Assembly (NCBI RefSeq): GCF_048403405.1
Contig: NZ_CP183129.1
From: Escherichia coli
GTDB lineage: Bacteria > Pseudomonadota > Gammaproteobacteria > Enterobacterales > Enterobacteriaceae
Length of the DNA stretch: 64,000 bases
Reading direction: 5' to 3' (one strand)
Below, piece after piece: positions 15,001 to 18,000 of this stretch (positions within the stretch are counted from its first letter, which is position 1; each line of letters begins with the position of its first letter). Made by a program: the position numbers.

Positions 15001-18000
15001 CTTTCAGCAGTTGCTCGAGCAGTGCACCTGGTTTGGCGTATTTACGGGACAGGATCATCGCGGCGATGATATAAGGCTTCCAGCTGGCTTCTTTGTAGGT
15101 CGCGATACGGTATTTTTCGAATACGCCTTCAGTCACTTCACCTTCTTTGCAGGATACGCCGCTGATATCAGCTGGCAGGCAGTGCATGTACAGGGCTTCG
15201 CCATCACGGGTCAGTTCCATCATCTCTTCAGTACAATGCCAGTCTTTGTGTTGCGCGTTCTGTGCCAGACACTGTTTTTCCAGTGCTTTTAAGCCTTCGT
15301 GATCGTTCGCACGCAGCAATTCAGTACGCTCTTCCATCACTTTGTAAGGTGCCCATGACTTCGGATAAACGATGTCTGCGTCTTTGAAGGCTTCTTCCAT
15401 GCTGGTGACCTGACGGAAGCTACCGCCGGAGGCTTTAGCATTGTTTTTAGCGACTTCAACGACATCCGGGATCAGGTCGTAGCCTTCCGGATGGGCCAGG
15501 GTGACATCCATACCGAAGCGAGTCATCAGACCGATGATGCCTTGTGGTACAGATAGCGGTTTGCCATAGCTTGGGGAGTAGGCCCAGGTCATGGCGATTT
15601 TTTTACCTTTCAGGTTTTCCAGTGAACCAAAGTGTTCACGTAACCATGCCAGGTCAGCCATTGACTGAGTCGGGTGGTCAATATCGCATTGCAGGTTCAC
15701 TAAAGCCGGACGTTGCGGCAGCACACCCTGCTTGTAACCGTCATCAAGTGCAGCGCCAACTTCACGCATATAGGCGTTGCCTGCGCCCAGATACATATCG
15801 TCGCGAATACCAATAGCGTCGGCGCAGAAGGAGATCATATTGGCGGTTTCACGCACGGTTTCGCCGTGAGCGATTTGTGATTTGCCTTCATCGAGATCTT
15901 GCTGTGCAAGGCCGAGCAGGTTAAGCGCGGAAGCATAAGAGAAGCGGGTACGAGTGGAGTTGTCGCGGAATACGGAAATACCTAATCCACTATTAAAGAC
16001 TTTGGTTGAGATGTTTTCAGCACGCAGTGCTTTTAATGCTGCGGCAACGTCCAGTACTTGTTTCAGTTCATCTGGCGTCTGTTCCCACGTTAACAAAAAA
16101 TCTTTCTCGTGAAGGTGAGAGGTCAGCGAATTGATATCCTTAATCAGCTCATTAACAGTTTTCATCATAAAGTCCCGGTAGTGGAATGACAGGCAAAGTG
16201 GTTTATTTCACTGTGACTTGCCAAAGTGATTGGTGTTTTCACAGCTATACCTGGGACTAACAATAAGTGTGCCAGAATTATCCACGGGGCTGCAAAAGAC
16301 TAATTTGACGGATAATGTGTGGGGTTGATCACAAATTGATGCCAGCTTCCGGTTGTTTGTAAAATACGAAAACGATTGGCTTTTCTTATCGCGTTATTTA
16401 TTTACTGCTAAGTATCAGAAATAAGATAAAGGGACAGGCTATCTCTCTTCAGTTTGATAAACTCACCGCCGTAATTCTCATATTGATATAGAAATGTGAT
16501 ATCTCTTCCATAATTTCATTAGAAAGTGATAAAAATCTTATGTTTTTATCAAAGCCAATTTCGCCTGAGTTAATATCATCATGATCTGTGAACCATCAAC
16601 GTCTTCAATGATCGACTTTTAAGTAAGTCTGGAAGGTAAAGCTATGGAGCTTGCTACTACGCAGTCAGTATTGATGCAAATTCAACCGACAATTCAGCGT
16701 TTTGCCAGAATGCTTGCCAGCGTTTTGCAGCTTGAGGTTGAGATCGTTGATGAAAACTTGTGTCGCGTCGCCGGAACGGGCGCGTATGGGAAGTTTCTTG
16801 GTCGCCAGTTGAGCGGCAACTCACGCCTGCTCCGCCACGTCCTGGAAACGAAAACTGAAAAAGTTGTGACACAGTCTCGCTTCGATCCCCTTTGTGAAGG
16901 TTGCGATAGTAAAGAAAATTGCCGCGAAAAAGCATTTCTGGGTACGCCTGTCATTTTACAGGATCGTTGTGTTGGGGTGATAAGTTTGATTGCCGTTACC
17001 CACGAGCAACAAGAGCATATCAGTGATAATTTACGCGAATTTTCTGATTATGTTCGCCATATATCCACCATTTTTGTTTCGAAACTTCTGGAGGATCAGG
17101 GGCCAGGAGATAACATCAGTAAAATATTCGCGACCATGATCGATAATATGGATCAGGGCGTATTAGTTGTTGATGATGAAAGTCGGGTTCAGTTTGTTAA
17201 TCAGACTGCCTTAAAAACACTTGGTGTTGTACAAAATAATATTATTGGGAAACCTATCCGTTTCAGACCATTAACATTTGAGAGTAATTTTACCCATGGA
17301 CATATGCAGCATATTGTTTCGTGGGACGATAAAAGTGAATTAATCATTGGTCAATTGCATAACATTCAGGGCCGACAATTATTTTTAATGGCGTTTCACC
17401 AATCGCATACCAGTTTTTCTGTAGCAAATGCACCTGATGAACCGCATATTGAACAATTGGTTGGCGAGTGCCGTGTTATGCGGCAATTAAAACGACTCAT
17501 TAGCCGTATTGCACCCAGCCCATCCAGCGTTATGGTGGTTGGTGAAAGCGGCACGGGTAAAGAAGTTGTCGCCCGTGCAATCCATAAGTTGAGCGGAAGA
17601 CGGAATAAACCCTTTATTGCTATCAACTGTGCCGCGATTCCGGAGCAGCTTCTGGAGAGCGAACTGTTCGGTTATGTTAAAGGCGCATTTACTGGCGCTT
17701 CTGCCAACGGTAAAACAGGGTTGATTCAGGCGGCGAATACGGGCACGCTGTTTCTCGATGAAATAGGTGATATGCCATTAATGTTGCAGGCTAAATTACT
17801 GCGCGCTATTGAGGCACGTGAAATTCTGCCGATTGGTGCCAGTAGCCCAATACAAGTCGACATTCGCATCATTTCTGCAACTAACCAGAATTTGGCCCAG
17901 TTCATTGCCGAAGGTAAATTCCGCGAAGATCTCTTCTACCGACTTAATGTTATCCCGATAACTCTGCCACCGCTGCGTGAACGTCAGGAAGATATTGAAC

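What the first reader, a model, noticed from the sequence alone, without database searches (positions are those of the whole stretch)
16527..16551. Perfect 9-bp-arm palindrome in the ygeV-ygeW divergent region
TGATAAAAA-N7-TTTTTATCA is an exact inverted repeat about 100 bp upstream of ygeV and within the upstream region of the ygeW-yqeA operon. It is a plausible operator or enhancer (UAS) site, for example for YgeV itself, and is not explained by coding sequence.
Basis: seen in the sequence. Interest (0 to 1): 0.4.

Follow-up and report, generated by a model that had tools for sequence, protein, structure and literature searches.

The report
Accessory YgeV half-site pair near ygeV
The palindrome is real and most likely a minor, lineage-restricted pair of binding half-sites for the regulator YgeV; it sits beside a much better conserved enhancer for E. 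coli's anaerobic purine/urate-degradation genes, so it is an ordinary regulatory element rather than a new kind of feature.

Summary
In detail: TGATAAAAA-N7-TTTTTATCA lies at 16527-16551, 92 bp upstream of ygeV, in non-coding DNA. It is unlikely to be chance, because only about 4% of shuffles of the spacer give such a palindrome.

Comparison of 40 enterobacterial ygeW-ygeV spacers shows it is not the main conserved element. The main element is a 15-bp everted dyad, TTMTCA-N3-TGAKAA, here TTCTCATATTGATAT at 16475-16489. It lies about 223 bp from the ChIP-validated σ54 promoter of ygeW.

The same core recurs upstream of the σ54 promoters of ygfK and xdhA, and inside yqeC. It equals the UAS predicted in 2019 for the clostridial activator DioR, which controls the orthologous genes. 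YgeV relatives at 34-53% identity keep an almost invariant DNA-binding helix.

The palindrome's arms are the same hexamers (TGATAA/TTATCA), but convergent and 13 bp apart, and neither has a core-type partner. Both arms are present in 15 of 40 orthologs. The right arm alone is more widespread, at a fixed position.

Best reading: accessory YgeV half-sites, serving as a distal enhancer subsite and/or an autoregulatory operator for ygeV. Binding is inferred, not shown. Hairpin, terminator, CRP, IHF and Fur readings were tested and rejected.

The parts
16527..16535 (.). Left arm TGATAAAAA of the flagged palindrome (half-site TGATAA at 16527-16532).
   Evidence: The half-site PWM scores it 8.5, in the top 0.12% of window positions. 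It is recognisable at +48/+49 from the core centre in 18/40 orthologs, all with YgeV at least 77% identical.
16536..16542 (.). 7-nt spacer TCTTATG.
   Evidence: It is not conserved: majority fraction 0.42 against a spacer-wide mean of 0.61. It is 6 nt long in Klebsiella indica.
16543..16551 (.). Right arm TTTTTATCA (half-site TTATCA at 16546-16551).
   Evidence: The half-site PWM scores it 10.9, in the top 0.03%. It is found at a fixed +66 to +68 from the core centre in 21/40 orthologs, including the Klebsiella oxytoca group and Buttiauxella, which lack the left arm. The terminal CAA is invariant in 26 representative sequences.
16475..16489 (.). Core enhancer site TTCTCATATTGATAT (everted dyad TTMTCA-N3-TGAKAA): the principal predicted YgeV UAS of the ygeW operon.
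   Evidence: It is present in all 40 orthologous spacers (column conservation 0.90-0.95). It shows no SNP in 7 E. coli lineages. It lies 222-227 bp from the sigma54 -12 element in 37/40 orthologs, and 213 or 203 bp in the other three. It matches the predicted clostridial DioR UAS.
16453..16460 (+). Promoter-proximal lone half-site TTTGATAA, 14 bp from the core. With TTCTCA it forms a second convergent wide dyad, TGATAA-N14-TTCTCA.
   Evidence: Column conservation is 0.92, and it is present at -24 in 38/40 orthologs. It was not part of the PWM training set and scores 9.8. Only 3 dyads of the form TGATAA-N12-15-TTATCA with at most 1 mismatch occur in 64 kb, and 2 are in this spacer.
16258..16275 (-). 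sigma54 promoter of ygeWXY-hyuA-yqeA (CTGGCACACTTATTGTT). The estimated TSS is near 16249, which puts the palindrome centre at about -290 and the core centre at about -233.
   Evidence: It is nearly invariant in 40 orthologs. It is identical to ChIP-seq site OS30 of Bonocora et al. 2015, PMC4591121.
16317..16332 (.). CRP-type site TGTGGGGTTGATCACA, between the core UAS and the sigma54 promoter.
   Evidence: TGnGA-N6-TCAC is conserved in the alignment. The assignment to CRP is by consensus only. A 'native Crp-binding site' in this spacer is mentioned in PMC12507026.
16495..16510 (.). Second CRP-type site TGTGATATCTCTTCCA, between the core and the palindrome.
   Evidence: AAATGTGAT...TTCCATATTT is conserved at 0.89. 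It shows no SNP in 7 E. coli lineages. The assignment to CRP is by consensus only.
16571..16579 (+). Conserved TAATATCAT (TAGTATCAT in most genera). It is either a further half-site (ATATCA) or the -10 element of the ygeV promoter (TAATAT or TATCAT).
   Evidence: Conservation is 0.81 and the half-site score is 10.3. No TSS is mapped. The simple sigma70 scan found no promoter here.
16644..18422 (+). ygeV (isrR): sigma54 enhancer-binding protein with PAS, AAA+ and Fis-type HTH domains.
   Evidence: Pfam Sigma54_activat 2e-70 and HTH_8 3e-13. NCBIfam gives only sub-threshold EBP hits. The HTH sequence LGIGIATLYRKIKKY is almost invariant in relatives at 34-53% identity.
6807..6821 (.). Core site TTATCATTATGATAA upstream of the ygfK sigma54 promoter (6623-6638, minus strand).
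   Evidence: The core and the promoter are conserved in 7 genera. The promoter is ChIP-seq site OS31.
8197..8211 (.). Core site TTCTCAATGTGAGAA inside yqeC, downstream of the intragenic sigma54 promoter for yqeB (7954-7970, plus strand).
   Evidence: The arms are conserved and the 3-nt spacer varies across 7 genera. The promoter was validated by Bonocora et al..
22293..22328 (.). Two core-type sites upstream of the xdhA sigma54 promoter (22180-22195, minus strand), with centres 21 bp apart: GTATCAATATGAGTG (22293-22307) and AAATCAATGTGATAA (22314-22328).
   Evidence: They are conserved in 5 genera. The second is an independent PWM hit of 12.5. The promoter is ChIP-seq site OS29.

Best explanation
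The palindrome is a pair of convergent half-sites (TGATAA ... TTATCA, 13 bp apart) for the cluster's own sigma54 activator, YgeV. It is an accessory, clade-restricted part of a larger enhancer in the ygeV-ygeW spacer.

The enhancer's core is the everted dyad TTCTCA-TAT-TGATAT at 16475-16489. A dimer of YgeV's Fis-type helix-turn-helix domains would bind this core and, through DNA looping (probably helped by a CRP-type bend at 16317-16332), activate the ygeW sigma54 promoter about 233 bp away.

The palindrome arms lie 47.5 and 66.5 bp from the core centre, on roughly the same helical face as the other half-sites. They would recruit further YgeV subunits, which would help the active oligomer to assemble.

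The palindrome also lies just upstream of the conserved TAATATCAT, a possible -10 element for ygeV about 100 bp before the ATG. YgeV bound there could therefore feed back on its own transcription, as PspF, NorR and NtrC do at divergent promoters.

Shown here: the sequences, their conservation, spacing and recurrence, and the identity of the core with the predicted DioR motif. Inferred: that YgeV is the protein that binds, that isolated half-sites are occupied at all, and the autoregulatory role.
For: (1) The arms are the family hexamers. An enterobacterial half-site PWM scores them 8.5 and 10.9, in the top 0.12% and 0.03% of the window.

(2) Footprint-like conservation: arms 0.73 and 0.78, spacer 0.42, spacer-wide mean 0.61. 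The right arm sits at a fixed +66 to +68 from the core in 21/40 orthologs.

(3) High-scoring half-sites outside the training core are enriched in this spacer: 4 observed against 1.0 in shuffles, P about 0.012. Half-site density is 1.26-1.87 per 100 bp in the ygeW and ygfK spacers, against 0-0.75 in 16 of 17 other spacers.

(4) The core motif recurs upstream of all three ChIP-validated sigma54 promoters and inside yqeC, and is conserved across genera.

(5) The same motif was predicted as the UAS of clostridial DioR for the orthologous regulon.

(6) A 40%-identical, full-length YgeV relative in a 29%-GC locus lies next to ygeX-, ygeY- and hyuA-type genes. It has tandem perfect cores both upstream of a sigma54-type promoter and upstream of its own gene.

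(7) The HTH is almost invariant across the family.

(8) Published genetics links YgeV to this regulon: ygfT expression is reduced in a ygeV mutant, and there is a YgeV iModulon.

(9) The five half-sites share a helical phase, 3.5-7.0 of 10.5.
Against: There are no binding data for YgeV anywhere in the papers searched.

Neither arm has a partner at the N3 spacing of the core: the candidate partners match 2/6 and 1/6 positions by direct reading of the sequence. A 19-bp centre-to-centre spacing is too wide for a single Fis-type HTH dimer as known from NtrC, so occupancy would need cooperativity.

Both arms are present in only 15/40 orthologs. E. whittamii and Escherichia sp. E1V33 carry TTTTTAGCA, and one O145 strain carries TTATAAAAA, so constraint is weak.

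No wide convergent dyad is conserved upstream of ygfK or xdhA.

At about -290 from the ygeW TSS the palindrome is further away than most UAS.

The ygeV TSS is unknown, and the sigma70 scan found no promoter nearby.
Confidence: 0.5

Rival explanations
1. The palindrome is the operator of a different dimeric DNA-binding protein that controls the ygeV sigma70 promoter (for example the factor behind indole induction of ygeV). Its resemblance to YgeV half-sites is coincidental.
For: ygeV is one of the genes most strongly induced by indole, which implies input from another regulator. The palindrome is closer to ygeV than to the ygeW promoter. The convergent N13 geometry differs from the core dyad. 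The left arm is restricted to one clade.
Against: The arms are exactly the family hexamers and score in the top 0.03-0.12% of the window. The right arm keeps a fixed distance from the core in distant genera. By direct reading there is no match to CRP (TGTGA-N6-TCACA), to IHF (WATCAANNNNTTR, where the TTR position reads AAT) or to the Fur 7-1-7 box. The only other near-copy in the window has 2 mismatches, at 52682.
Confidence: 0.2
2. Only the right arm is functional, either as a lone YgeV half-site or as part of the ygeV promoter (TTATCA matches the -35 consensus TTGACA at 4/6 positions). The left arm, and hence the palindromic symmetry, is a lineage-specific accident of A/T-rich sequence.
For: The right arm is kept in 21/40 orthologs, including genera with no left arm. 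The terminal TCAA is nearly invariant. A perfect palindrome appears in 4% of shuffles of this A/T-rich spacer. SNPs hit the left-arm TGA in one E. coli lineage.
Against: The left arm is itself conserved as TGATAAAG across Escherichia, Citrobacter, Atlantibacter, Yokenella, Trabulsiella and a Pluralibacter MAG, while the 7-nt spacer varies freely. Trabulsiella, Yokenella and the Pluralibacter MAG keep a perfect 9-bp palindrome with a different arm sequence (TGATAAAGA/TCTTTATCA). TTATCA lies 19 bp (to TAATAT) or 22 bp (to TATCAT) from the candidate -10 elements, which is too far for a normal -35.
Confidence: 0.2
3. The palindrome acts as a nucleic-acid structure: an RNA hairpin in a ygeV 5' leader, or a cruciform.
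For: The RNA fold is -6.5 kcal/mol with z = -3.4. One pair follows G-C (Trabulsiella), then G-T (C. amalonaticus, Atlantibacter), then A-T (E. coli), a wobble path that works only on the ygeV-sense strand.
Against: The z-score is a consequence of choosing a perfect palindrome. The stem is all A-U apart from one G-C pair and is weak. There is no terminator-like tail and no Rfam match. Covariation is no better than shuffled: score 0.189 against 0.188, reached by 228 of 500 shuffles, with 72% of cells paired against 71% shuffled. Pairing is lost in half of the genera while the right-arm sequence is kept. It is not known whether the region is transcribed.
Confidence: 0.05

Closest known systems
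Predicted UAS of the clostridial sigma54 activator DioR (Nie, Dong & Yang 2019, BMC Genomics 20:565, PMC6615313, Table S3)
   Same: The half-site hexamers are the same (TTATCA/TGATAA, with a TTCTCA/TGAGAA variant). The regulon content is the same (ygeW-ygfK-ssnA-ygeY, dpaL, yqeC-ygfJ-yqeB-xdhC, xdhABC, pbuX). Sites occur in multiples and lie 175-390 bp upstream of the gene start, upstream of sigma54 promoters. The E. coli ygfK core CTTTATCATAATGATAAGG differs by one base from the C. botulinum site ATTTATCATAATGATAAGG.
   Different: The DioR motif is the everted N3 dyad. The flagged palindrome has the two hexamers convergent with 13 bp between them, and neither arm has an N3 partner. The DioR motif is itself only a computational prediction, and DioR was still called uncharacterized in 2024. 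That DioR and YgeV are orthologs is inferred from architecture, gene context and motif. It was not shown with the DioR sequences themselves.
Divergent activator/sigma54-operon control regions with autoregulation (pspF-pspA, norR-norVW, glnA-ntrBC)
   Same: The EBP gene is transcribed divergently from its sigma54 target. Several activator sites lie in the shared spacer, and the sites nearest the activator gene can repress its sigma70 promoter (established knowledge of PspF, NorR and NtrC).
   Different: Those systems have mapped promoters and footprints. Here the ygeV promoter is unmapped and binding is untested. The site-to-promoter distances (about 233 and 290 bp) are longer than the usual 100-150 bp in those systems.
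TyrR strong and weak boxes (TGTAAA-N6-TTTACA)
   Same: This is an EBP-family protein whose high-affinity sites are accompanied by weaker, less symmetrical sites. The weaker sites are filled only cooperatively when the protein oligomerises. That offers a model for how isolated or poorly arranged half-sites could be used.
   Different: The recognition sequence and spacing differ. TyrR acts at sigma70 promoters. The analogy is from general knowledge and was not tested here.

Membership tests
YgeV/DioR-type UAS (everted dyad TTMTCA-N3-TGAKAA) | Sequence matches the 15-bp everted dyad. | tested here: not met
   The palindrome is TGATAA-N13-TTATCA. The N3 partners of its arms are ATTAGA (2/6) and CCAATT (1/6) by direct reading. 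It does not appear among the top 25 full-core PWM hits, whereas 16473-16491 scores 21.4.
YgeV/DioR-type UAS (everted dyad TTMTCA-N3-TGAKAA) | Contains the family half-site hexamer. | tested here: met
   Both arms score 8.5 and 10.9 of a possible 11.7 on the half-site PWM, in the top 0.12% and 0.03% of the window.
YgeV/DioR-type UAS (everted dyad TTMTCA-N3-TGAKAA) | Lies upstream of a sigma54 -24/-12 promoter of the regulon, next to the activator gene. | tested here: met
   It lies about 265-290 bp upstream of the ygeW promoter motif at 16258-16275, which is ChIP-seq site OS30. ygeV is adjacent. This is at the far end of the 100-250 bp range reported for most clostridial UAS.
YgeV/DioR-type UAS (everted dyad TTMTCA-N3-TGAKAA) | Conserved in orthologous control regions. 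| tested here: inconclusive
   The right arm is present in 21/40 orthologs, the left arm in 18/40 and both in 15/40. The palindrome is perfect in 6/40. The core is present in 40/40.
YgeV/DioR-type UAS (everted dyad TTMTCA-N3-TGAKAA) | Bound by the activator, and required for activation. | not testable with these tools
   This needs EMSA, footprinting, ChIP-exo or reporter mutagenesis. No such data were found in the papers searched.
Autoregulatory operator of a divergent EBP gene | Overlaps the -35/-10/TSS of the activator gene's own promoter. | tested here: inconclusive
   No TSS is available. The conserved TAATATCAT at 16571-16579 is a candidate -10, which would put the right arm at about -35 to -40. 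The sigma70 consensus scan found nothing here.
Intrinsic terminator / structured RNA | G+C-rich stem with a U-tract, or a structure supported by covariation, or an Rfam family match. | tested here: not met
   There are 0 terminator-like sites. The stem is A-U rich at -6.5 kcal/mol. There is no Rfam hit over the palindrome. Covariation equals the shuffles.
CRP, IHF or Fur sites | Match to TGTGA-N6-TCACA, to WATCAANNNNTTR, or to the Fur box TGATAAT-N-ATTATCA. | tested here: not met
   By direct reading of 16520-16565: there is no TGTGA/TCACA; TATCAA-AGCC is followed by AAT rather than TTR; and the Fur-like hexamers are 13 bp apart rather than 1 bp. CRP-type sites do exist elsewhere in the spacer (16317-16332 and 16495-16510).

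The most novel reading that the evidence does not exclude
The palindrome, the core and the promoter-proximal half-site together form one phased enhancer of five half-sites (at -24.5, -4.5, +4.5, +47.5 and +66.5 bp, all on one helical face). A single YgeV oligomer would occupy it through a second, undescribed binding mode of the YgeV/DioR family, the convergent wide dyad TGATAA-N13/14-TTMTCA. In this way activation of ygeW would be coupled to feedback on ygeV from one nucleoprotein complex.
Probability: 0.15. Interest if true: 0.5.

Novelty: new member of a known kind. Interest (0 to 1): 0.3.

Why it matters
YgeV (also called IsrR) is still a poorly characterized regulator. It sits at the head of the E. 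coli gene cluster now known to degrade urate and purines anaerobically in the gut. That pathway is of current interest for gout, and engineers have already replaced this very spacer to over-express it (PMC12507026).

No YgeV binding site has been reported in the literature searched. The flagged palindrome is a small piece of the picture. Following it gave a concrete, testable enhancer model: a core motif TTMTCA-N3-TGAKAA at four cluster promoters, identical to the predicted clostridial DioR motif.

That model would allow three things:
- direct tests of the YgeV regulon
- a check of whether proposed targets such as the LEE carry the site
- rational design of urate-responsive promoters

If the palindrome proves to be an autoregulatory operator, it would also explain how ygeV expression is set.

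Tried and rejected
- Copies of the palindrome elsewhere in the window. With up to 3 mismatches there is one other hit, TGATAAAAATCACTTTTTTTAAACA at 52682-52706, in what I take to be the yqeG-yqeF spacer from gene order and ORF lengths. I treated it as chance and did not pursue it.
- RNA readings. Fold, Rfam, terminator scan and pair counting on 26 orthologs all argue against a structure.
- A sigma70 promoter for ygeV. The consensus scan found none near the palindrome. My hand-picked candidates (extended -10 TGaTAAAAA in the left arm, or -10 TAATAT/TATCAT at 16571-16579) remain guesses.
- A sigma54 promoter for ygeV. There is no GG-N10-GC match on the plus strand of the spacer. TTGGCTTTTCTTATCGC at 16377 has the wrong spacing.
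- CRP, IHF and Fur consensus by eye: no match for the palindrome.
- Within-species footprinting. One SNP in 25 nt against an expectation of about 2 is uninformative.
- One context look-up (Yokenella YgfK, P0014) returned nothing.
- The paper with the original ygeV genetics (Iwadate & Kato 2019) is not in the searchable library. I know it only through citations.
- The long-range 9-nt inverted repeat ATTGGCTTT/AAAGCCAAT (16375-83 and 16551-59) is 8/9 in most E. coli. I judged it to be chance.
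Full report
**Observation**

The window is an E. 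coli chromosome segment. Its ygeW-ygeV spacer is 100% identical to strain TUM14771. It carries the purine/urate cluster in the order ygfM-ssnA-ygfK-mocA / yqeC-yqeB / yqeA-hyuA-ygeY-ygeX-ygeW / ygeV / xdhCBA. NCBIfam hits identify ygeW, ygeX, ygeY, xdhC and xdhB. The remaining names follow K-12 gene order, ORF lengths and the protein names returned.

At 16527-16551 the plus strand reads TGATAAAAA-TCTTATG-TTTTTATCA, exactly as reported. It lies in the 475-bp, 37%-GC spacer between ygeW and ygeV. The right arm ends 92 bp before the ygeV ATG. No ORF of 20 aa or more overlaps it.

It is the only perfect 9-bp-arm inverted repeat in the spacer. Dinucleotide-preserving shuffles of the spacer produce one in about 4% of trials.

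**What the literature knows**

- YgeV is a predicted sigma54 activator. It was renamed IsrR after its induction by indole.
- A YgeV iModulon contains xdhABC, ygeWXY-hyuA, ygfK-ssnA-ygfM-xdhD, ygfT and uacT. A ygeV mutant has reduced ygfT expression.
- Sigma54 ChIP-seq (Bonocora et al. 2015) found sites upstream of ygeW (CTGGCACACTTATTGTT), xdhA, ygfK and ygfT. It also found a validated intragenic promoter inside yqeC that drives yqeB. All of these map exactly to motifs I found in the window.
- No paper in the library reports a YgeV binding site.
- RefSeq annotates nothing in the spacer.

**Phylogenetic footprint**

A scan of one genome per species returned 41 loci encoding YgeV orthologs, with 62-96% identity in the N-terminal domain. 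ygeW is divergent in all 39 loci that include upstream DNA. The 40 spacers were aligned.

The strongly conserved blocks are:
- the sigma54 promoter (0.92 mean majority fraction)
- a CRP-type site at 16317-16332
- above all 16453-16515, which reads TTGATAA-N13-ATT(C/A)TCAT-ATTGATAT-gAAAATGTGAT-N5-TTCCATATTT (0.89-0.95)

The flagged palindrome is intermediate. Its arms score 0.73 and 0.78 (72nd and 80th percentile of 9-nt windows), its spacer 0.42, and the spacer-wide mean is 0.61. That pattern fits a protein site.

Retention is uneven, however:
- The left arm is kept only in the clade whose YgeV is at least 77% identical: Escherichia, Citrobacter amalonaticus group, K. indica, Atlantibacter, Yokenella, Trabulsiella and a Pluralibacter MAG.
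- The right arm (TnTATCAA) extends to the Klebsiella oxytoca group and Buttiauxella.
- Both arms are recognisable in 15/40 orthologs. The palindrome is perfect in 6/40.
- Two close Escherichia relatives carry TTTTTAGCA, and one O145 E. coli carries TTATAAAAA.

**A cluster-wide motif**

The centre of the best-conserved block is an everted dyad, TTMTCA-N3-TGAKAA, here TTCTCATATTGATAT at 16475-16489. I fetched six further cluster loci through YgfK orthologs and four through XdhA orthologs.

The same dyad is:
- invariant upstream of the invariant ygfK sigma54 promoter in 7 genera
- present as two sites 21 bp apart upstream of the xdhA sigma54 promoter in 5 genera
- present inside the 3' end of yqeC in all genera, with conserved arms and a variable 3-nt spacer
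- present in the ygfT-uacT spacer of two genera

In the 64-kb window only five sites match with at most one mismatch. Three of them are these regulatory positions.

The distance from the ygeW sigma54 -12 element to the core centre is 222-227 bp in 37 of 40 spacers. In the other three it is 213, 213 and 203 bp, so indels come in whole helical turns. That argues for a face-of-helix interaction between the core and the promoter.

**Link to YgeV**

Nie et al. 2019 reconstructed clostridial sigma54 regulons. For an activator they named DioR, which controls dpaL, ygeW-ygfK-ssnA-ygeY, yqeC-ygfJ-yqeB-xdhC, xdhABC and pbuX, they predicted UAS such as ATTTATCATAATGATAAGG, TATTATCATTTTGATAATA and, in C. 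difficile, ATTCTCGAATTGAGAATA. These occur in arrays 17-20 bp apart. This is the enterobacterial core, including its TTCTCA/TGAGAA variant.

YgeV has PAS, AAA+ and Fis-type HTH domains. A search of 1.8 billion representative proteins found many full-length relatives at 35-41% identity. In the eleven I aligned (34-53% identity), the HTH (LGIGIATLYRKIKKY) is almost invariant.

One relative lies in a 29%-GC locus next to ygeX-, ygeY- and hyuA-type genes. The PWM built only from enterobacterial sites gives its highest scores of all there (23.4-23.6). One tandem pair of cores lies upstream of a sigma54-type promoter. A second tandem pair lies upstream of the activator gene itself.

The assignment of the core motif to the YgeV/DioR family is therefore well supported by comparative evidence. 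It remains untested biochemically. That DioR and YgeV are orthologs is my inference.

**Where the palindrome fits**

Its arms are the family hexamers. The half-site PWM ranks them in the top 0.12% and 0.03% of window positions. But they are convergent with 13 bp between them. The N3 partner of each arm is absent (2/6 and 1/6 matches), so neither arm is part of a core-type site.

A second convergent wide dyad, TGATAA-N14-TTCTCA (16455-16480), is formed by the universal promoter-proximal half-site and the left half of the core. Only three such dyads with at most one mismatch exist in 64 kb, and two are in this spacer.

Half-sites outside the PWM training core are enriched in the spacer: 4 against 1.0 in shuffles, P about 0.012. 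The five half-sites at -24.5, -4.5, +4.5, +47.5 and +66.5 from the core centre share a helical face. No wide dyad is conserved at ygfK or xdhA.

Downstream of the palindrome, the conserved TAATATCAT (16571-16579) may be a further half-site or the ygeV -10 element. The ygeV start site is unknown, and a consensus scan found no sigma70 promoter there.

**Mechanism proposed (confidence about 0.5)**

The palindrome provides two accessory YgeV half-sites. Their likely roles are to stabilise the YgeV oligomer nucleated at the core, and/or to let YgeV feed back on its own promoter, as PspF, NorR and NtrC do at divergent promoters.

**Rivals**

- A different regulator of ygeV binds the palindrome (0.2). 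ygeV is strongly indole-induced, and the geometry is unlike the core.
- Only the right arm is functional, and the symmetry is a lineage accident (0.2).
- A hairpin (0.05). The fold is weak at -6.5 kcal/mol, and there is no terminator tail and no Rfam hit. Covariation equals the shuffles despite one G-C to G-T to A-T series.

**Verdict**

The element is an ordinary member of a known kind, an activator half-site pair or operator in a divergent sigma54 control region, and it is not the main enhancer. The more useful product of the analysis is the predicted YgeV core motif and enhancer architecture for the E. coli urate/purine cluster. These are directly testable.

Noticed in passing
window 8197-8211 (inside yqeC); promoter at 7954-7970 (+): A YgeV/DioR-type core site, TTCTCAATGTGAGAA, lies inside yqeC. 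It is about 230 bp DOWNSTREAM of the published intragenic sigma54 promoter for yqeB and 160 bp upstream of the yqeB ATG. Its arms are conserved and its 3-nt spacer varies across 7 genera. Bonocora et al. linked that promoter to nitrogen limitation and NtrC. The site suggests YgeV as the activator, acting from a downstream enhancer.
   Followed up: partly
window 16258-16489 and loci L001-L041: The distance from the ygeW sigma54 -12 element to the core UAS centre is 222-227 bp in 37/40 orthologs. It is 213, 213 and 203 bp in the other three (two Kluyvera and one unnamed Enterobacteriaceae isolate). The indels therefore preserve helical phase.
   Followed up: yes
window 16317-16332, 16495-16510, 6702-6717, 6672-6687: Conserved CRP-type sites accompany the sigma54 promoters. 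Two are in the ygeW-ygeV spacer. In the ygfK spacer there is a perfect TGTGAAAGAACTCACA and a weaker TGTGAGGCGGCTCGAA between the UAS and the promoter. They may take the role IHF plays at other sigma54 promoters, or mediate catabolite control. The assignment is by consensus only.
   Followed up: partly
YgeV protein (window 16644-18422), residues 84-93 and 570-585: The YgeV family has invariant Cys84, Cys87 and Cys93 (CxxC-x5-C) in the N-terminal domain, which could be a metal or redox sensing site. It has no receiver domain (Pfam shows only PAS, AAA+ and HTH_8), so the label 'orphan response regulator' used in the IsrR paper does not fit its domain content.
   Followed up: partly
L058 6755-6792 and 10967-11004: A 29%-GC (firmicute-like) metagenomic locus encodes a 40%-identical YgeV relative. 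It carries tandem perfect cores (AATTATCATATTGATAAAT and TTTTATCAATATGATAATT, 19 bp apart) upstream of TTGGCTTTTGAATTGCT and a ygeX/dpaL-like gene. A second tandem pair lies about 230 bp upstream of the activator gene itself, which hints at autoregulation in that lineage.
   Followed up: partly
L042 8669-8684, L044 8728-8743, L045 8694-8709, L047 8737-8752; window about 7935-7952 (-): A good sigma54-like motif (for example TGGCGCTTTAAGTGCA) lies antisense within yqeC and points toward mocA-ygfK in four genera. It is degenerate in E. coli (AGGCGCTTTTAACGGCAT). It could be a coding-sequence coincidence.
   Followed up: no
window 16368-16385: The block GAAAACG(A/T)TTGGCTTTT is conserved only in the Escherichia-Citrobacter-Atlantibacter-Trabulsiella clade, the same clade that has the full palindrome. 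Its function is unknown. Its 9-nt complement AAAGCCAAT abuts the palindrome's right arm (16551-16559), but the match is 8/9 in most E. coli and is probably chance.
   Followed up: partly
window 55864-56123: This is the only spacer outside the purine cluster with a half-site density comparable to the YgeV-regulated spacers (4 half-sites scoring at least 8.5 in 260 bp, at 30% GC). It is probably a composition effect.
   Followed up: no
whole window: Perfect 9-bp-arm inverted repeats with a spacer of 15 nt or less are five-fold enriched across the window: 18 centres against 3.6 in shuffles. The longer ones include 18432-18455 (between ygeV and xdhC), 37953-37985 and 51241-51273. These are likely terminators or other sites.
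   Followed up: no
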